Virus genome (UHGV): UHGV-0141986
Length of the DNA: 11,633 nt
DNA from: a virus
Direction: 5' to 3' (one strand)
The notes below the pieces were generated by a model, which was not told the DNA's origin, did not search any database, and worked only from the letters and a program-made list of their open reading frames with translations. Position 1 is the stretch's first letter, and every line of letters begins with the position of its first letter. This document shows, in pieces, positions 928 through 9,364 of the stretch. A program made the position numbers and the translations under genes.

Positions 928-1491
928 ATGAGGCTAACCGTGGGTAAGTATCACTGGAAAGTAGAAAAACAGCCTGAGTGGTACGTGAAAGCTGTCAGAA
1001 AAACTATCGCAGCGTTGCCGGGTGGTTACGCTGAAGCAGCTGACTGGCTGGATGTAACAGAGAACGCATTATTTAACCGCCTTCGTGCCGATGGCGATCA
1101 GATTTTCCCGCTGGGATGGGCAATGGTTTTACAGCGCGCGGCTGGCACTCACTACATTGCGGATGCTGTCGCACAGTCTGCTGGTGGGGTGTTCGTATCG
1201 CTTCCTGAAATTGAGGAAGTAGAGAACGCCGATATAAACCAGCGCCTGCTGGAAGTCATCGAACAGATCGGGAATTACTCAAAGCAGATTCGTTCGGCAA
1301 TCGAAGATGGGGTCGTGGAGCCACACGAGCAGACAGCAATTAATGATGAGTTGTATCTGTCAATTTCGAAGCTCCAGGAGCATGCAGCACTGGTCTACAA
1401 AATCTTTTGCGCCCCAGAAAAGAGTGACGCCCGCGAGTGTGCAGCTCCGGGCGTCGTGGCGTTTTGTGTCTGTGGAGAAACTAACGCATGA
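928..1491 (+). CDS. CII-like phage regulatory protein (CP76 / YdaT-like family); true start may be the in-frame GTG at 940
   Basis: 187-aa ORF directly after the cro-like gene. The segment NALFNRLRADGDQIFPLGWAMVL...YIADAVAQ resembles the HTH region of CII(CP76)-type regulators as I recall them. GAGG at 930-933 sits 6 nt before GTG 940. Confidence 0.65.
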   Translation: MRLTVGKYHWKVEKQPEWYVKAVRKTIAALPGGYAEAADWLDVTENALFNRLRADGDQIFPLGWAMVLQRAAGTHYIADAVAQSAGGVFVSLPEIEEVENADINQRLLEVIEQIGNYSKQIRSAIEDGVVEPHEQTAINDELYLSISKLQEHAALVYKIFCAPEKSDARECAAPGVVAFCVCGETNA

Positions 1492-1636
1492 ACAGTTTAA
1501 CGGCAAATAACCGTTTGTCGCAACAGCTGGTGGTCAGTGTCGCTGAACACCTGTTGTTACGGCATGAATGCAGATTACCAAATCACCTGGCTGTAAGTAA
1601 CCACAGAGAACTTTACCTGACTGTGGGGGGCGAGTT

Positions 1637-1816
1637 GTGCGGGAACTTAACCGCTGGTTTCGTGACGGAAGAGGGCTTTATGTCCATGTTATTCGTTGGG
1701 AACCAGAAACACAGCGCGTTATCTATCTTCGCAAAGACTACCCGCATGAGTGCTTTAGTCCTTTGTGGAAATTCAGGCGTGATTTTGTTGAGTGTGAAGG
1801 ACCACCAGCACATTGA
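1637..1816 (+). CDS. Small conserved prophage protein (DUF4222-like motif, from memory); GTG start, absent from ORF track (59 aa)
   Basis: Frame open from stop at 1598-1600 to TGA 1814-1816. GTG 1637 preceded by GGGGGG (1625-1630). Translation VRELNRWFRDGRGLYVHVIRWEPETQRVIYLRKDYPHECFSPLWKFRRDFVECEGPPAH is more protein-like than the overlapping 202-aa track ORF and resembles the ORF at 2292-2528. Confidence 0.4.
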   Translation: MRELNRWFRDGRGLYVHVIRWEPETQRVIYLRKDYPHECFSPLWKFRRDFVECEGPPAH

Positions 1817-2065
1817 TTCTTCCATTCCGGGACGTTACACTGTTCAGGCACCTTATAAAGCGGGTGCCGGGATTGGCGTCCTGGAAATGTTATCGGCGAT
1901 ATATGACGCGCCAGCGTTTTTTTTATCGTCTGCGTCTGCGCACACCCAAATTATGGTGGGCTGGACGGGGGCACCGAAAGGTGCGCCGGTTTCCGATAAC
2001 GCCGGTTACGCCAACCCCGTTCAGTTCACCACCAGCGAAATTCACTGTTATCGGAGGCTGCCATC

Positions 2066-2299
2066 ATGGCTACTGTCCCAGCCCTCACTCGTCTGAATGA
2101 TGAAGACTTACATAAACTCAGTTATGTAACAACTGCACTACGTGCTCTGCGCAAGGTAACTCTTTCGGATCCGCAGGCGCATCAGGTTCTGGTAGAAACC
2201 CTTCTTAACTTGCAGGCTGAACGTATTCGTCTGGCGGGTAAGGCTAATTTTCATATTCACCGTCTTCTGAATATCAGCGGAGGGCATCGTCATGCTTAA
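2066..2299 (+). CDS. Hypothetical small phage early protein (77 aa)
   Basis: ATG 2066 with GGAGG at 2053-2057; stop overlaps the next start (translational coupling). No family recognised. Confidence 0.6.
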   Translation: MATVPALTRLNDEDLHKLSYVTTALRALRKVTLSDPQAHQVLVETLLNLQAERIRLAGKANFHIHRLLNISGGHRHA

Positions 2300-2528
2300 T
2301 CCGTTGATCCTCAATATTTGCCGTTTGCTTCAGCGTAAAAAAACATCAATTCCTACCGTTGGTCAGTGGTATACCACGCCTGCAGGGCATGTTCTACGTG
2401 TTAGCCTGGTTGACCGTGAATGTCAGAAGGTGGTTTGTGAACCGCTGGGCCGTAATTACCGCGTCAGTATGCCGCTTATAGCCTTTCGCTCCGGAAAAAA
2501 CATGAAGCATCTCGGAGGTGCAGCATGA
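2292..2528 (+). CDS. Hypothetical small phage protein (78 aa), possible paralog of the 1637-1816 product
   Basis: ATG 2292 with GGAGGG at 2279-2284. Segment GQWYTTPAGHVLRVSLVDRECQKVVCEPLGRNYRVSMPLIAF shares a Y..G.V.V...RV...YP.EC..P..F-type pattern with the 1637-1816 product. Stop overlaps the next start (ATGA at 2525). Confidence 0.6.
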   Translation: MLNPLILNICRLLQRKKTSIPTVGQWYTTPAGHVLRVSLVDRECQKVVCEPLGRNYRVSMPLIAFRSGKNMKHLGGAA

Positions 2529-3364
2529 GTATGGAGCTGATGGTTAAAGCGATGAAAATTCGAGTGGGTAATCCATTGCGAAAACTGGTTCTGATCAAGC
2601 TGGCTGATAATGCCAGCGATCAGGGTGAGTGCTGGCCCAGCTACCAGCATATTGCTGACCAGTGCGAGATTAGCAAACGTTCTGTGATGAATCATATTGC
2701 GGCCCTTTGTGAGTCCGGGCTGGTAAAAAAAGTCACCCGGAAAGGTGAAAAAGGTAACTCAAGTAATATCTATCTCCTTCATCTGGATGGTGCAGGAGAT
2801 TCACTAGGGGGTAGTGCAAATAATTCACTATCTGGTGCAGCAAATTCACCAGGTAGTGCAGGAGTTGCACCAGGTAGTGCAGGAGTTGCACCAGGGGGTA
2901 GTGCAGGAGATTCACCCAGAACCAGTCACTCTTTTGAACCAGTCAAAGAATCAGTCAATGAACCAATAGCTGTTGGTGCATCTGCTGATGAGTCTGTGCG
3001 AGTTCGTTCAAACCGACCGGAATACTCTCCGGAGTTTGAGCAGGCATGGCTGGCATATCCCAAACGTGCTGGTGGCAATTCAAAATCAGCAGCCTTCAAA
3101 GCCTGGAAAGCCCGTTTGAACGAGGGGGTAAACCCCGAAACCATGCTGGAAGGTGTGAATCGCTACGCGGGCTGGGTATCTGCGATGGGCAATAGCGGTA
3201 CACAATTTGTGAAACAGGCTGTCACGTTCTTTGGTCCGGATCGTCATTTCGAAGAATCCTGGGAAGTTCCTGCGGTATCTGCAGCCAGACGCGAGGACCC
3301 GTACTTCAAAGCCAGTTACGACAAAGTGGACTACAGCCAGATCCCGGCAGGATTCAGGGGGTGA
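2525..3364 (+). CDS. Phage replication initiation protein (N-terminal winged-HTH replisome-organizer domain, Gly/Ser/Ala-rich linker, C-terminal domain)
   Basis: 279 aa. N-terminus LRKLVLIKLADNASDQGECWPSYQHIADQCEISKRSVMNHIAALCESGLVKKV matches the HTH_36-type domain of phage replication initiators (from memory). GGAGG at 2513-2517. The linker is encoded by the repeat array at 2789-2917. Confidence 0.75.
   Translation: MSMELMVKAMKIRVGNPLRKLVLIKLADNASDQGECWPSYQHIADQCEISKRSVMNHIAALCESGLVKKVTRKGEKGNSSNIYLLHLDGAGDSLGGSANNSLSGAANSPGSAGVAPGSAGVAPGGSAGDSPRTSHSFEPVKESVNEPIAVGASADESVRVRSNRPEYSPEFEQAWLAYPKRAGGNSKSAAFKAWKARLNEGVNPETMLEGVNRYAGWVSAMGNSGTQFVKQAVTFFGPDRHFEESWEVPAVSAARREDPYFKASYDKVDYSQIPAGFRG
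2789..2917. repeat. Array of six iteron-like direct repeats (core GTGCA-N5-TKCAC, 21-24 bp spacing) inside the replication gene; candidate replication origin
   Basis: Core elements start at 2790, 2814, 2835, 2856, 2877 and 2901. Units at 2852-2872 and 2873-2893 are identical 21-mers (GGTAGTGCAGGAGTTGCACCA). Each core has internal dyad symmetry (GTGCA / TGCAC). Confidence 0.6.
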
Positions 3365-3366
3365 TC

Positions 3367-3855
3367 ATGAGTCTGTTAAATGACGTTCAGAAATTCATTG
3401 AAGCCCATCCTGGGTGTACTTCCGGAGACATTGCGGATGCTTTTGCAGGTTACTCACGGCAGCGCGTTCTGCAGTCTGCAAGCAAGTTACGTCAGAGTGG
3501 GCGTGTGGCTCACCGTTGTGAAGGATATACACGCAGACATTTCCCGCGCCTGACTGAGAGAGCGCAGGAGCCGGAACCACAACCAGTTCGTGAAACCAGA
3601 CCTGTGCGCAATTTCTATGTCGGCACTAACGATCCCCGGGTGATTTTGTGCCTGACCCGCCAGGCTGAAGAACTGGAGTCCAGGGGCTTATACCGTCGTG
3701 CTGCAACCGTGTGGATGGCGGCATTCCGTGAAAGCCACTCCCAGCCAGAACGAAACAATTTTCTGGCACGTCGTGAGCGGTGCTTACGGAAAAGCAGCAA
3801 GCGCGCTGTATCGGGTGATGAGTGGTATCTGTCAGGGAATTACGTGGGGGCTTAA
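3367..3855 (+). CDS. PerC-family-like putative transcriptional regulator
   Basis: ATG 3367 preceded by GGGGG (3356-3360). C-terminal segment LTRQAEELESRGLYRRAATVWMAAF resembles the conserved PerC/Pch core (from memory). Stop overlaps the Dam start (TAATG). Confidence 0.6.
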   Translation: MSLLNDVQKFIEAHPGCTSGDIADAFAGYSRQRVLQSASKLRQSGRVAHRCEGYTRRHFPRLTERAQEPEPQPVRETRPVRNFYVGTNDPRVILCLTRQAEELESRGLYRRAATVWMAAFRESHSQPERNNFLARRERCLRKSSKRAVSGDEWYLSGNYVGA

Positions 3856-4478
3856 TGAGTAATAAATATTGCCAGGAGCTGGTGGAGCTGCGGAACAAAC
3901 CAGCCCATGAACTGAAGGAAGTGGGCGATCAGTGGCGCACGCCGGATAACATTTTCTGGGGAATTAACACCCTGTTTGGCCCGTTTGTCCTGGATCTGTT
4001 TACTGACGGTGATAACGCCAAATGTACCGCGTATTACACGGCGGAAGACAACGCGCTGGCGCATGACTGGTCAGAACGTCTTGCGGAGCTTAAAGGTGCT
4101 GCCTTTGGTAATCCCCCATACAGCCGCGCCAGTCAGCATGAGGGGCAATACATCACCGGCATGCGTGATAAAGGCGGGCGCTATGTTTTCCTGATCAAAG
4201 CTGCCACCAGCGAAGTGTGGTGGCCGGAAGATGCAGATCATATTGCTTTTATTCGCGGGCGTATTGGTTTTGAACTGCCTGCCTGGTTTATCCCGAAAGA
4301 TGAGAAGCAGGTGCCGACAGGCGCTTTCTTCGCTGGTGCTATTGCTGTTTTCGACAAGACCTGGAAGGGACCGGCAATCAGCTACATCGGGCGCGATGAA
4401 CTTGAGGCATGTGGTGAGGCGTTTCTGGCGCAGGTTCGCCAGCAGGCGGAAAAACTGGTCAGGGAGATGGCGGCATGA
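3855..4478 (+). CDS. Phage DNA N-6-adenine methyltransferase (Dam, phage-type)
   Basis: MSNKYCQELVELRNKPAHELKEVGDQWRTPDNIFWGINTLFGPFVLDLFTDGDNAKCTAYYTAEDNALAHDWSE...AAFGNPPYS carries the NPPY catalytic motif and the N-terminal WxTP signature. Track start 3822 overlaps the upstream gene; ATG 3855 is preferred. Confidence 0.85.
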   Translation: MSNKYCQELVELRNKPAHELKEVGDQWRTPDNIFWGINTLFGPFVLDLFTDGDNAKCTAYYTAEDNALAHDWSERLAELKGAAFGNPPYSRASQHEGQYITGMRDKGGRYVFLIKAATSEVWWPEDADHIAFIRGRIGFELPAWFIPKDEKQVPTGAFFAGAIAVFDKTWKGPAISYIGRDELEACGEAFLAQVRQQAEKLVREMAA

Positions 4479-8568: not shown

Positions 8569-8867
8569 AAAATTCCTTAATACTGATAACTTGGCGCACT
8601 ATACACACGTTCCTGAAGAAAGCTATAGTTTTTTGATGGGGTTGAAGATGGCTGGATGTCTAAAATAAACATTGCTTCATATGTTCAACTATGCGTTAAT
8701 GATTGCGTCGGTTTGAAGAACAGACGATATACGAAGTAGTTTACTAAAGCAGTTCTCATTTCAGGTGTTATTCACTTATTCCTTCTTTGAGTCTCTCCAA
8801 TTAAGTACGAAGTCGTTTCTGTTATACAAGCCATTTATGCCGAAAGGCTCAAGTTAAGGAATGTAGA
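8569..8867. promoter_or_regulatory. Divergent cspF/cspB promoter region and long cspB 5' UTR
   Basis: 299-bp AT-rich intergenic region between divergent csp genes. Long structured 5' UTRs are a known property of cold-shock mRNAs. TAAGGA SD 7 nt before cspB ATG. Individual elements not resolved. Confidence 0.35.
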
Positions 8868-9083
8868 ATGTCAAATAAAATGACTGGTTTAGTAAAATGG
8901 TTTAACGCTGATAAAGGTTTTGGCTTTATTTCTCCTGTTGATGGTAGTAAAGATGTGTTTGTGCATTTTTCTGCGATTCAGAATGATAATTATCGAACCT
9001 TATTTGAAGGTCAAAAGGTTACCTTCTCTGTAGAGAGTGGTGCTAAAGGTCCTGCAGCAGCAAATGTCATAATTACTGATTAA
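8868..9083 (+). CDS. cspB: Cold-shock protein CspB-like (CspA family)
   Basis: [71 protein letters not shown] with RNP1 (KGFGFI) and RNP2 (VFVHF) motifs. Confidence 0.9.
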
Positions 9084-9364
9084 AATTCATAGTTTGTCTG
9101 TATACGATAACGAAGAAGGCTGATGCCTGAGTGGAGATACAGACAGAGTGGTGAATATTGGATCTCTTTAATAAATAGTAAGGAGGTCCAATACATGAAA
9201 CAATGGCCAGCATATTTGGCAATAACTTAATCAGGAAAAGTATGCTAACCATTGTGGTGAAGTGCAGGTTTGCTGCATGAATAGTTTTACAGCAGAAGCT
9301 AACTGCTGGCATAGCAAAACAAAGTGCGTAAGTGGATGACTCCCACAAAAAGTACCACAATATT

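What the first reader, a model, noticed from the sequence alone, without database searches (positions are those of the whole stretch)
1492..2065. Gene missed by the ORF track in a region where the long track ORF is probably spurious
The 202-aa track ORF (1488..2096) has a low-information translation and overlaps the well-supported gene starting at 2066. In another frame, 1637-1816 encodes a compact basic/aromatic 59-aa protein from a GTG start with a G-rich SD, probably missed for being non-ATG and short. Its pattern (RDGRG-YVHVI...RVIY-R-DYP-EC-SPL-F) recurs loosely in the 2292-2528 product, suggesting two paralogous small-domain proteins. What, if anything, 1817-2065 encodes is unresolved.
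Basis: partly seen in the sequence, partly recalled or inferred. Interest (0 to 1): 0.45.

Follow-up and report, generated by a model that had tools for sequence, protein, structure and literature searches.

The report
Nested small gene plus RNA switch
The missed 59-residue gene is real but already annotated elsewhere; it lies out of frame inside a conserved prophage gene (the ymfM cell-division-inhibitor family), and the unresolved DNA after it encodes a known antisense-RNA switch, not an ordinary protein.

Summary
The 59-aa GTG ORF (1637-1816) is a genuine DUF4222 gene: Pfam 50.9 bits against a cut-off of 27, and dN/dS 0.10. RefSeq already annotates the identical protein in near-identical E. 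coli prophages.

The 202-aa ORF is not simply spurious. It has three layers.
- **1488-1636:** the N-terminal domain of the e14 YmfM family, whose start overlaps the ymfL stop (ATGA). In relatives its dN/dS is 0.25, against 1.2 in shifted frames.
- **1637-1816:** the same frame crosses the DUF4222 gene. Its sequence is unconstrained, but it is kept free of stops by biased synonymous codon choice in 45 of 45 distinct Enterobacterales sequences.
- **1817-2065:** a P1-immI / Gifsy-1-type RNA cassette. It holds a promoter-like site, an IsrK-like sRNA (1848-1924), a C4 antisense RNA (1949-2036), and the C4 target overlapping the ribosome-binding site of the ORF at 2066. The Pfam "Ash" match covers the same DNA.

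A 25-bp deletion, found in no other sequence searched, removes one C4 target (a2) and splits an ancestral 278-aa ORF (SfV orf37).

Paralogy with the 2292-2528 product is plausible only at fold level.

One by-product: K-12 ymfM contains an unannotated DUF4222 ORF, and the published filamentation experiments do not tell the two products apart.

The parts
1488..1636 (+). 5' part of ORF202: the YmfM-family N-terminal coding segment. Its ATG overlaps the stop of the ymfL-like cII gene (gcATGAac).
   Evidence: A custom HMM built from 38 YmfM N-termini scores 25.4 bits; the best of 2000 shuffles scores 7.4. In 26 relatives dN/dS is 0.25 in this frame and about 1.2 in shifted frames. This frame has no stops in the upstream 150 nt in any locus examined, while the DUF4222 frame has 0-5 and the third frame 0-4. 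Within the window's own lineage the constraint is weak (S:N 10:16).
1625..1634 (+). G-rich Shine-Dalgarno-like stretch for the DUF4222 gene (GGGGGGCGAG).
   Evidence: Sequence. Relatives carry GGAGG-type sites 7-10 nt upstream of an aligned ATG, GTG or TTG start.
1637..1816 (+). DUF4222 gene, 59 aa, GTG start. It lies in the -1 frame relative to ORF202 and inside it.
   Evidence: Pfam PF13973 E 1.1e-13. phrog_1343 over full length. RefSeq WP_071593530.1 is annotated at the same place in relatives. dN/dS 0.10. S:N 11:2 in close relatives. The AlphaFold2 model has pLDDT 87 and an SH3/Tudor-like barrel.
1638..1816 (+). ORF202 (ymfM) frame across the DUF4222 gene. Its sequence is unconstrained, but it is kept free of stop codons.
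   Evidence: 45 of 45 distinct sequences are open. At dipeptides where a purine-ending codon would create a stop, only T/C-ending codons occur, although CTG is 25/45 at a no-risk Leu. P(open) averages 0.06 with E. coli codon usage. The product over 15 divergent representatives is 2e-7 even under a within-gene synonymous shuffle. dN/dS in this frame is 1.6-1.8, like the control frame. RgdR, a DUF4222 gene outside this context, has stops in that frame.
1813..1841 (+). Promoter-like site of the RNA cassette: -35 TTGATT 1813-1818 (contains the DUF4222 stop TGA 1814-1816), a 17-nt spacer, -10 TACACT 1836-1841.
   Evidence: Hexamers read from the sequence. Comparable hexamers appear at about the same distance upstream of IsrK in loci from different genomic contexts, judged by eye from the printed sequences, with spacers not measured individually. 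The site falls below the threshold of the consensus scan (8/12).
1848..1926 (+). IsrK-like sRNA. The a1 target (TTGGCGT 1873-1879) sits in its second hairpin loop, and an intrinsic terminator follows (stem 1905-1918, U-run to 1926).
   Evidence: Rfam RF01394, 61.7 bits (gathering 50), full length. c4-a1b1 RF03163 at 1835-1887, 21.4 bits, below threshold. Terminator scan. a1 covaries with a' in 4 variants.
1949..2036 (+). C4-type antisense RNA. b' loop TCCGATAAC 1992-2000; a' ACGCCAA 2008-2014.
   Evidence: Rfam RF01695, 82.8 bits (gathering 45), full length. On 14 variants 100% of 377 cells pair, 11 pairs show compensatory changes, and 0 of 500 shuffles reach this. The ViennaRNA MFE reproduces the structure.
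1953..2096 (+). Upstream ORF in the ORF202 frame, starting at the conserved AUG at the 5' edge of C4. It is 47 aa in this window. It is the positional equivalent of Gifsy-1 orf45, and runs in frame into the downstream gene in intact relatives.
   Evidence: Gifsy-1 orf45 is translated and needed for anrP translation (PMC4825925). Translation here was not tested.
2038..2039 (.). Junction of a 25-bp deletion (AATTGGCGTTTCCGGTGGTGAAGGT, between AATT repeats). It removes the a2 target and a conserved GGTGGTGA element, and shifts the ORF202 frame.
   Evidence: Alignment to L001 shows 1 mismatch plus this gap. The junction is absent from 5,426 complete E. coli genomes and from IMG/VR. All phage hits carry the 25 bp. 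The longest a':downstream complement falls from 7 nt to 3 nt.
2047..2057 (+). b2 target of C4 (GTTATCGGA 2047-2055), overlapping the Shine-Dalgarno GGAGG (2053-2057) of the ORF at 2066.
   Evidence: It has a 9-nt Watson-Crick complement to the b' loop. 13 distinct b' loops each match their own b2 over 6-10 nt. The layout and spacing match the curated P1 a2/b2/icd annotation.
2066..2299 (+). 77-aa ORF under the C4/IsrK cassette, in the position of P1 icd. In sister loci a Rha-family antirepressor starts at the same MAT(V/I)P codon.
   Evidence: phrog_4908/3960. No similarity to P1 Icd. Found only in SfV-like phages.
2292..2528 (+). 78-aa protein with an N-terminal helix plus an SH3-like barrel. 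It is a possible remote relative of DUF4222, and its stop overlaps the start of the replication gene.
   Evidence: phrog_1153. AlphaFold2 pLDDT 83.7. KOW/Tudor/SH3 fold hits, none significant. hhalign against DUF4222 gives E 0.018.

Best explanation
The interval is a densely layered stretch of the early-right operon of an SfV/e14-like lambdoid prophage.

1. Translation that ends at the ymfL-like cII gene can restart at the overlapping ATG 1488. This ORF begins with a YmfM-family N-terminal domain.
2. Inside this ORF, in the -1 frame, a 59-aa DUF4222 protein starts independently from its own G-rich ribosome-binding site and GTG 1637. It is a small SH3/Tudor-like barrel of the RgdR family. Both frames are under selection in relatives. 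The DUF4222 frame is selected for sequence. The YmfM frame is selected for sequence in its non-overlapping N-terminus, and only for staying open across the overlap.
3. Directly after the DUF4222 stop an autonomous RNA cassette begins. It holds a promoter-like site, an IsrK-like terminated sRNA carrying target a1, and a C4 antisense RNA. The b' loop of C4 pairs with b2 over the Shine-Dalgarno of the ORF at 2066. Its a' segment pairs with a1 and, in relatives, with a2. By analogy with P1 c4-icd-ant and Gifsy-1 isrK-orf45-anrP, this cassette gates translation of the downstream gene.
4. In this window a private 25-bp deletion removed a2 and shifted the frame. The ancestral 278-aa ORF therefore appears as ORF202 plus a separate 77-aa ORF.

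Shown here: homology, selection on both frames, RNA structure, and target covariation. Inferred: actual translation of either frame, transcription from the promoter-like site, repression by C4, and the effect of the deletion.
For: **DUF4222 gene.**
- It matches the Pfam and PHROG families. All but a few of the 51 homologs carry DUF4222.
- RefSeq annotates it in relatives.
- dN/dS is 0.10.

**YmfM frame.**
- The ATGA start overlap with ymfL recurs, in a conserved context, in most loci.
- N-terminal dN/dS is 0.25, against 1.2 in shifted frames.
- The window's N-terminus scores 25.4 bits against the family HMM.
- Stops are avoided at synonymous sites. RgdR serves as a negative control.
- The position matches K-12 ymfM.

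**RNA cassette.**
- IsrK and C4 score above their gathering thresholds. The same pair occurs in all 13 other loci scanned for both; P1 has C4 and c4-a1b1 but no IsrK hit.
- The C4 helices pair in 100% of cells, with 11 compensatory pairs.
- 13 b' variants and 4 a' variants covary with their targets.
- The terminator is present.
- The layout is identical to the curated P1 immI region.
- The Gifsy-1 mechanism is published (PMC4825925).

**Deletion:**
Against: - No expression data exist for this locus.
- The YmfM tail shows no sequence constraint. Within the window's own SfV-like lineage the N-terminal segment is only weakly constrained (S:N 10:16). It has also lost the conserved PQLR..P.PG motif, so it may be decaying here.
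- The 'Ash' frame has no stop across the cassette in 85 of 85 SfV-like relatives. Only 3-nt length differences occur, while the other frames carry up to 7 stops. Translation through the RNA genes in this context therefore cannot be excluded.
- The promoter-like site fails the consensus scan.
- b1 is not convincingly present.
- The 25-bp deletion could be an assembly error.
Confidence: 0.8

Rival explanations
1. The 59-aa DUF4222 gene is the only real feature. ORF202 is a chance ORF, and 1817-2065 encodes nothing identifiable.
For: DUF4222 is clearly real. The ORF202 frame shows no amino-acid constraint over the overlap. PGAP omits ymfM in thousands of genomes.
Against: N-terminal dN/dS is 0.25 in relatives. 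Stops are avoided at synonymous sites. The window's N-terminus scores 25.4 bits against the family HMM. Two Rfam families lie in 1848-2036.
Confidence: 0.08
2. The RefSeq/PGAP view. There are two protein genes: DUF4222, and a 181-aa Ash-family regulator that starts at GTG 1779. The window carries a frameshifted Ash pseudogene.
For: Pfam Phage_ASH is above its cut-off (40.6 bits here; 68.4 bits in the intact relative). The frame is open in 85 of 85 SfV-like loci with only 3-nt indels. PGAP annotates it this way.
Against: - The Pfam match (1836-2042) coincides with IsrK plus C4.
- In VT2-Sakai, TL-2011b, ArgO145, a Yersinia phage and P1 the conserved blocks fall in different frames or contain stops. 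Four of the five have no + strand CDS annotated across the cassette.
- An intrinsic terminator sits inside the supposed gene.
- The variable segments are exactly the RNA loops and their targets, and they covary as base pairs.
Confidence: 0.2
3. The phage SfV annotation. A single 278-aa regulatory protein (orf37) runs from ATG 1488 to the end of the 77-aa ORF and is truncated here by the deletion. The DUF4222 ORF is incidental.
For: The ORF is continuous in 85 of 85 relatives. It is annotated as orf37 in SfV. Some PGAP Rha-family calls start at the same MNSLT codon.
Against: DUF4222 is the frame under strong purifying selection in the overlap (dN/dS 0.10 against 1.7). It has its own conserved start and ribosome-binding site. 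The RNA evidence is as above.
Confidence: 0.03
4. A programmed -1 ribosomal frameshift fuses the YmfM N-terminal domain to the DUF4222 domain, so the two are not separate products.
For: The DUF4222 frame is -1 relative to ymfM. A Shine-Dalgarno-like sequence lies just upstream, as at some frameshift sites.
Against: The DUF4222 frame has stops shortly upstream of its start (10 codons upstream in K-12). An aligned ATG, GTG or TTG with a ribosome-binding site is conserved. No slippery heptamer was seen when I read the junction in the window and in the commonest relative type; there was no systematic search.
Confidence: 0.03

Closest known systems
RgdR (ECs1581) of E. coli O157:H7 prophage Sp7/CP-933C, the characterised DUF4222 protein (PMC3378721, PMC10877973)
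   Same: It has the same Pfam domain (RgdR E 2e-23; window protein E 1e-13). BLASTP gives 41% identity over 34 residues. Both are small basic prophage proteins.
   Different: RgdR is 99 aa with N- and C-terminal extensions and an RGD motif that matters for its activity. The window protein is 59 aa and has no RGD. RgdR sits in a P4-like element upstream of a primase and is not overprinted by another frame, since its +1 frame has stops. No function has been tested here.
YmfM (b1148), the 'SfiC' cell-division inhibitor of K-12 prophage e14 (bioRxiv 10.1101/2020.11.19.390815)
   Same: The position after ymfL is the same, with an ATGA start overlap. The N-terminal domain is homologous, and a DUF4222 ORF is embedded in the same relative frame.
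   Different: e14 YmfM stops about 20 nt before the DUF4222 stop, just upstream of the replication gene. In the window lineage that stop is absent, the frame runs on into the RNA cassette, and the N-terminus is divergent. Whether the window ORF inhibits division is unknown.
Phage P1/P7 immI: c4 antisense RNA, icd, ant (curated P1 record NC_005856.1; PMC8201110)
   Same: The order is the same: promoter, a1(b1), C4, a2, b2 over the ribosome-binding site, a 73-77-aa ORF, then an overlapping next ORF. The spacing is alike, with b2 ending 10 nt before the ATG in both. The Rfam family is the same.
   Different: The downstream ORF is unrelated to Icd, and the next gene is not Ant. An IsrK-type terminator lies between a1 and C4. 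a2 is deleted in the window. b1 is not evident.
Salmonella Gifsy-1 isrK-orf45-anrP locus (PMC4825925)
   Same: The IsrK family is matched at full length with its terminator. A promoter-like site lies just upstream, a short ORF starts about 30 nt after IsrK, and in sister loci an antirepressor (Rha) gene lies downstream.
   Different: In Gifsy-1 short IsrK activates translation in trans by remodelling the read-through mRNA, and the published account read here does not discuss a C4 element. In intact relatives of the window the uORF is fused in frame to the downstream gene. The downstream gene here is a 77-aa protein of unknown function.
Phage SfV orf37 ('immunity region') and RefSeq 'ash family protein'
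   Same: The DNA is 94-98% identical.
   Different: These annotations treat the interval as one protein (278 aa) or as DUF4222 plus Ash (181 aa). Neither records the RNA genes, and the window lacks 25 bp that both have.

Membership tests
DUF4222 (Pfam PF13973) | Profile HMM score at or above the gathering cut-off over the whole domain | tested here: met
   50.9 bits against 27; residues 4-52 on profile positions 5-51 of 53.
DUF4222 / RgdR subfamily | RGD tripeptide, shown to matter for RgdR activity (PMC3378721) | tested here: not met
   The 59-aa sequence contains RDGRG but no RGD. BLASTP aligns only residues 24-57 with RgdR.
YmfM (e14 SfiC) family | ORF start overlapping the stop of the ymfL-like gene (ATGA) | tested here: met
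   gcATGAac at 1486-1493. The same context occurs in most of the 48 loci.
YmfM (e14 SfiC) family | Homologous N-terminal domain. No curated model exists: Pfam and NCBIfam give nothing for K-12 YmfM. | tested here: met
   A custom HMM of 38 N-termini scores 25.4 bits over positions 1-48; the best of 2000 shuffles scores 7.4. The PQLR..P.PG motif is not conserved in the window.
YmfM (e14 SfiC) family | Stop codon about 20 nt before the DUF4222 stop and 7-10 nt before the replication-gene ATG | tested here: not met
   There is no stop. The frame continues to 2096, or to the end of the downstream gene in 85 of 85 relatives.
YmfM (e14 SfiC) family | Blocks Z-ring formation and causes filamentation when expressed | not testable with these tools
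   Only K-12 ymfM has been tested, and that construct also contained the DUF4222 ORF.
C4 antisense RNA (Rfam RF01695; P1 immI type) | Covariance-model score at or above gathering, full length | tested here: met
   82.8 bits against 45; model positions 1-87 of 87.
C4 antisense RNA (Rfam RF01695; P1 immI type) | Long closing stem with two inner hairpins, supported by covariation | tested here: met
   100% of 377 cells pair, 11 pairs carry changes on both sides, 0 of 500 shuffles reach this, and slid controls pair in 36-50% of cells.
C4 antisense RNA (Rfam RF01695; P1 immI type) | a' and b' complementary to a2 and b2 at the ribosome-binding site of the downstream gene | tested here: inconclusive
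   b'/b2 is a 9-nt perfect match over the Shine-Dalgarno. a2 is deleted in the window but present, and covarying, in all relatives.
C4 antisense RNA (Rfam RF01695; P1 immI type) | Downstream icd and ant homologs | tested here: not met
   No BLASTP alignment between the 77-aa ORF and P1 Icd. Sister loci carry Rha-family genes instead.
IsrK (Rfam RF01394; Gifsy-1 type) | Covariance-model score at or above gathering, with an intrinsic terminator | tested here: met
   61.7 bits against 50, full length. Terminator stem 1905-1918 plus a U-run.
IsrK (Rfam RF01394; Gifsy-1 type) | Own promoter, and read-through mRNA whose uORF translation switches on the antirepressor | not testable with these tools
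   A promoter-like site appears at about the same position upstream of IsrK in 9 loci, judged by eye. A uORF starts at 1953. No expression data.
Ash protein family (Pfam PF10554) | Profile HMM score at or above the gathering cut-off | tested here: met
   40.6 bits against 26, truncated at profile position 79 of 107 by the deletion. The intact relative scores 68.4 bits.
Ash protein family (Pfam PF10554) | A reading frame conserved among homologous sequences, as expected of a protein domain | tested here: not met
   In five phages from other contexts, P1 included, the conserved blocks lie in different frames or are interrupted by stops. The frame is conserved only in the SfV-like context and phiP27.

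The most novel reading that the evidence does not exclude
The ymfM ('SfiC') locus of e14-like prophages is present in about 2,000 of 5,426 complete E. coli genomes, including K-12. It may be a conserved dual-coding locus.

An independently initiated DUF4222 (RgdR-family) protein is encoded out of frame inside ymfM. In K-12 it runs from TTG at 1,204,001 to 1,204,180 and is unannotated in NC_000913.3.

Selection keeps both frames. The SOS-inducible filamentation attributed to YmfM could be due wholly or partly to the DUF4222 protein, because every published construct and deletion contained both ORFs.
Probability: 0.35. Interest if true: 0.65.

Novelty: new member of a known kind. Interest (0 to 1): 0.5.

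Why it matters
For this window the result is mostly a correction.
- The missed gene is real but already known.
- The unresolved DNA is a known kind of antisense-RNA switch.
- The 'well-supported' gene at 2066 is the regulated target of that switch.

Three wider points follow.
1. Reference K-12 annotation and RefSeq/PGAP make mutually exclusive calls at the same locus: ymfM only, or DUF4222 only. The comparative data say both frames are maintained. That makes the identity of the e14 division inhibitor directly testable with frame-specific mutations.
2. The 'ash family protein' label and Pfam PF10554 coincide with IsrK and C4 RNA genes. They fail a frame-conservation test outside one genomic context. 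This suggests a protein family built at least partly on translated RNA genes.
3. The private 25-bp deletion removes one of the two C4 target sites. By analogy with changes near the C4 binding site in P1vir, it could loosen control of the downstream gene.

Tried and rejected
- **NCBIfam** gave no model for any of the proteins.
- **PHROG hits** were not used as evidence of coding. The antisense 70-aa ORF (1613-1825, minus strand) also has a full-length PHROG family. The phrog_1170 (YmfM-length) hit to ORF202 covers only the part constrained by DUF4222.
- **The protein search with the ORF202 N-terminus** returned mostly truncated SfV-like ORF calls and no e14-type YmfM. A structure prediction of the YmfM domain was therefore not attempted, because the alignment would have been too shallow.
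- **-1 frameshift fusion** was rejected (stops upstream, conserved start).
- **The 95-aa ORF** (1813-2100, third frame) has no family hit. It is open only because the RNA region is poor in stops.
- **Icd homology of the 77-aa ORF** gave no alignment.
- **Searches for the deletion junction** in E. coli genomes and IMG/VR found nothing.
- **Duplex energies** ignore intramolecular structure, so I did not rely on them.
- **A proteomic data set of the SOS response** lists the ymfM transcript as induced but lists no YmfM protein. This is uninformative.
Full report
**1. What is at the coordinates**

The ORF list and sequence show four ORFs on the + strand:

| ORF | Coordinates | Length | Notes |
|---|---|---|---|
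| ORF202 | 1488-2096 | 202 aa | ATG overlaps the stop of the upstream gene (gcATGAac) |
| DUF4222 ORF | 1637-1816 | 59 aa | GTG start, preceded by GGGGGGCGAG (1625-1634) |
| 77-aa ORF | 2066-2299 | 77 aa | preceded by GGAGG |
| 78-aa ORF | 2292-2528 | 78 aa | |

The neighbours identify an e14/SfV-like lambdoid early-right operon. There is a CII-like YmfL homolog at 928-1491 and an O-like replication initiator at 2525-3364. The DNA is 98.5% identical to prophages in many E. coli genomes.

**2. The 59-aa gene is real, and already known**

- It matches Pfam DUF4222 (E 1.1e-13, 50.9 bits, cut-off 27) and phrog_1343 end to end.
- RefSeq annotates the same ORF, with the identical protein sequence, as WP_071593530.1 in near-identical loci.
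- 51 homologous protein clusters were found, nearly all carrying the DUF4222 domain.
- Among 45 distinct sequences from Enterobacterales genomes, its frame has dN/dS about 0.10 at dS about 1.4.
- Among close relatives, polymorphisms split 11 synonymous to 2 non-synonymous.
- The start column is conserved: ATG 38, GTG 5, TTG 2. A GGAGG-type site lies upstream.
- The AlphaFold2 model (pLDDT 87) is a five-stranded SH3/Tudor-like barrel. Only generic fold matches were found.
- The one characterised family member is RgdR of E. coli O157 (PMC3378721). It is a pleiotropic regulator that binds DNA non-specifically. The window protein shares the domain but not the RGD motif.

**3. ORF202, 5' part: a YmfM homolog overprinted on DUF4222**

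In K-12 e14 the gene after ymfL is ymfM (b1148, annotated 'cell division inhibitor YmfM'). Translating the K-12 DNA in the other frames revealed a DUF4222 ORF inside ymfM. It starts at a TTG with GGAGA 7 nt upstream, has 59 codons, spans genome positions 1,204,001-1,204,180, and scores Pfam E 8.6e-19.

NC_000913.3 annotates ymfM and not this ORF. PGAP-annotated genomes, including another MG1655 assembly, annotate the DUF4222 ORF and not ymfM.

I then asked which frame is maintained. The test set was 48 loci from different Enterobacterales species.

*Upstream, non-overlapping 150 nt:*
- The ymfM frame has no stop in any locus examined. The DUF4222 frame has 0-5 and the third frame 0-4.
- In 26 loci that align without gaps, the 55-codon N-terminus has dN/dS 0.25 in the ymfM frame. 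Both shifted frames give about 1.2.

*Across the overlap:*
- The ymfM frame shows no amino-acid constraint: dN/dS is 1.6-1.8, against 1.9-2.0 in the control frame.
- Yet it is open in all 45 distinct sequences.
- At the four dipeptides where a purine-ending Leu or Val codon would create a stop, only CTT/CTC/GTT/GTC/ATY occur. CTG is 25 of 45 at a no-risk Leu, and GTG occurs at no-risk Val sites.
- Given the protein sequence and E. coli codon usage (a table entered from memory), the chance of an open frame averages 0.06 per sequence.
- Under a conservative within-gene synonymous shuffle, the product over 15 representatives with under 65% third-position identity is 2e-7. The +2 frame carries as many stops as expected.
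- RgdR, a DUF4222 gene outside this context, has several stops in that frame.
- The ymfM stop is usually made by the rare codon ATA followed by G (32 of 45). It lies 7-10 nt before the ATG of the replication gene, which itself overlaps the DUF4222 stop.

*The window's own lineage:*
- The first 49 residues score 25.4 bits against an HMM of these N-termini. The best of 2000 shuffles scores 7.4.
- The constraint is weak (S:N 10:16).
- The conserved stop is missing.

**4. ORF202, 3' part: an RNA cassette**

Rfam places two families above their gathering scores on the + strand, inside the 'Ash' part of ORF202:
- IsrK (RF01394) at 1848-1924, 61.7 bits.
- C4 antisense RNA (RF01695) at 1949-2036, 82.8 bits.

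Both are full length. A sub-threshold c4-a1b1 match lies at 1835-1887. The IsrK terminator was found independently (stem 1905-1918, then a U-run).

The IsrK-C4 pair recurs in all 13 other loci scanned for both. P1, also scanned, has C4 and c4-a1b1 but no IsrK hit.

On 14 C4 variants, all 377 cells of the 27 model pairs are standard pairs. Eleven pairs carry compensatory changes, 0 of 500 shuffles reach this, and slid controls pair in 36-50% of cells.

The specificity elements covary with their targets:
- 13 different b' loops each have a 6-10-nt perfect complement immediately upstream of, or over, the Shine-Dalgarno of the downstream gene. In the window, TCCGATAAC (1992-2000) pairs with GTTATCGGA (2047-2055), and the SD is GGAGG (2053-2057).
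- 4 different a' segments each have a perfect 7-nt complement. One lies in the second IsrK hairpin loop (a1, 1873-1879). The other lies just after C4 (a2).

This order and spacing equal the curated P1 immI annotation: a1, b1, c4, a2, b2, icd, ant. In P1, C4 represses icd/ant translation (PMC8201110).

A promoter-like site sits directly upstream: -35 TTGATT 1813-1818, a 17-nt spacer, -10 TACACT 1836-1841. By eye, similar hexamers occur at about the same distance in cassettes from unrelated contexts. It is too weak for the consensus scan. Its -35 contains the DUF4222 stop codon, so the cassette begins exactly where the small gene ends.

In Gifsy-1 the homologous isrK-orf45-anrP locus is an autonomous unit. 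Translation of a short ORF after IsrK switches on the antirepressor (PMC4825925). The window has such an ORF from the conserved AUG at 1953.

**5. Is 'Ash' a protein?**

The Pfam Phage_ASH match covers window 1836-2042. In the intact relative it also reaches through the a2/b2 region. That is the same DNA as the RNAs.

Evidence against a conserved protein:
- In VT2-Sakai, TL-2011b, ArgO145 and a Yersinia phage the cassette lies upstream of Rha, Bro-N or other downstream genes. Three of the four have no + strand CDS across it.
- Its conserved blocks translate in different frames, or contain stops. TL-2011b has a stop in all three frames.
- P1 also has stops.

Evidence that translation may occur in this particular context:
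- In the SfV-like context, 85 of 85 loci keep this frame open over 274 or 277 nt. The other frames carry up to 7 stops.
- phiP27 is also open.

I therefore regard the RNA function as established by comparative evidence. Translation through the cassette in this context remains unresolved. The general protein family is doubtful. I could not inspect the Pfam seed.

**6. The 25-bp deletion**

Against near-identical relatives the window differs by one substitution and by the loss of AATTGGCGTTTCCGGTGGTGAAGGT, which lies between AATT repeats.
- The junction was not found in 5,426 complete E. coli genomes or in IMG/VR.
- All phage relatives carry the 25 bp.
- The deletion removes a2 and a conserved GGTGGTGA element that is complementary to the 3' arm of the C4 stem.
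- It shifts the frame. SfV's 278-aa orf37 appears here as ORF202 plus the 77-aa ORF.
- b2 and the Shine-Dalgarno remain.

By analogy with P1vir changes near the C4 binding site (PMC8201110), control of the ORF at 2066 may be loosened. This is an inference, and an assembly error is not excluded.

**7. The proposed paralogy**

- hhalign of the two families gives probability 2.5% and E 0.018.
- Reciprocal PHROG hits are weak, and Pfam finds nothing for the 78-aa protein.
- Both models are small barrels with the same order of strands and a short helix. They share several fold-search targets, including SMN Tudor, Spt5 KOW and TnsB.

Remote homology is plausible but unproven.

**8. Literature on function**

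Ansari et al. cloned the whole ymfM ORF in pBAD24 and deleted the whole gene. Earlier screens recovered fragments containing all of ymfM. All of these include the DUF4222 ORF with its ribosome-binding site, so the filamentation phenotype cannot be assigned to one frame.

I found no paper that mentions both ymfM and DUF4222.

**9. Verdict**

- The parts are members of known families: DUF4222/RgdR, YmfM, and IsrK and C4 RNAs. The missed gene is already in RefSeq.
- Not described in what I could search: the conserved dual coding of ymfM and DUF4222, and the coincidence of the Ash family with RNA genes.

Noticed in passing
window 8707-9146 (+): Rfam cspA thermoregulator (RF01766) at 156.7 bits, full length. 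This implies a cold-shock-protein gene with its long 5' UTR inside the same window.
   Followed up: no
window 1613-1825 (-): A 70-aa ORF antisense to the DUF4222 gene matches phrog_14536 over its full length (E 1.4e-46). It is most likely a family of spurious ORF calls, which shows that a PHROG hit alone is not evidence of a gene.
   Followed up: partly
L003 6002-6181 (K-12 MG1655 NC_000913.3, 1,204,001-1,204,180): An unannotated 59-codon DUF4222 ORF lies inside ymfM (TTG start, GGAGA ribosome-binding site, Pfam E 8.6e-19). PGAP-annotated genomes, including another MG1655 assembly, annotate this ORF and omit ymfM.
   Followed up: yes
L001 2658-2665 and homologous positions in all cassette variants; deleted in the window at 2038|2039: A conserved GGTGGTGA lies just downstream of a2. 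It is complementary to the 3' arm (TCACCACC) of the C4 closing stem, so it may form an alternative pairing in the unprocessed transcript.
   Followed up: no
L085-L130 at about 1660-1680; L134 18305-18604: DUF4222 genes sit immediately upstream of a replication gene and overlap its start in two unrelated element types. These are the O-like initiator in e14-like prophages and a primase in the P4-like Sp7 element that encodes RgdR.
   Followed up: partly
window 2525-3364 (+): The replication initiator contains a repetitive GSAGVAPGSAGVAPGGSAG stretch. The corresponding gene in the closest relative (L001) is flagged as frameshifted by PGAP.
   Followed up: no
window 3361-3855 and 3822-4478 (+): By position and near-identity to L001 these are a PerC-family regulator and a phage N-6-adenine methyltransferase.
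   Followed up: no
L004-L084 (IMG/VR and genome loci), cassette region: At least 13 immunity-like specificity variants of the C4 b' loop and b2 target circulate among otherwise near-identical SfV-like prophages. They are combined with either a 77-aa ORF or Rha-family antirepressors, which points to modular exchange of the cassette.
   Followed up: partly
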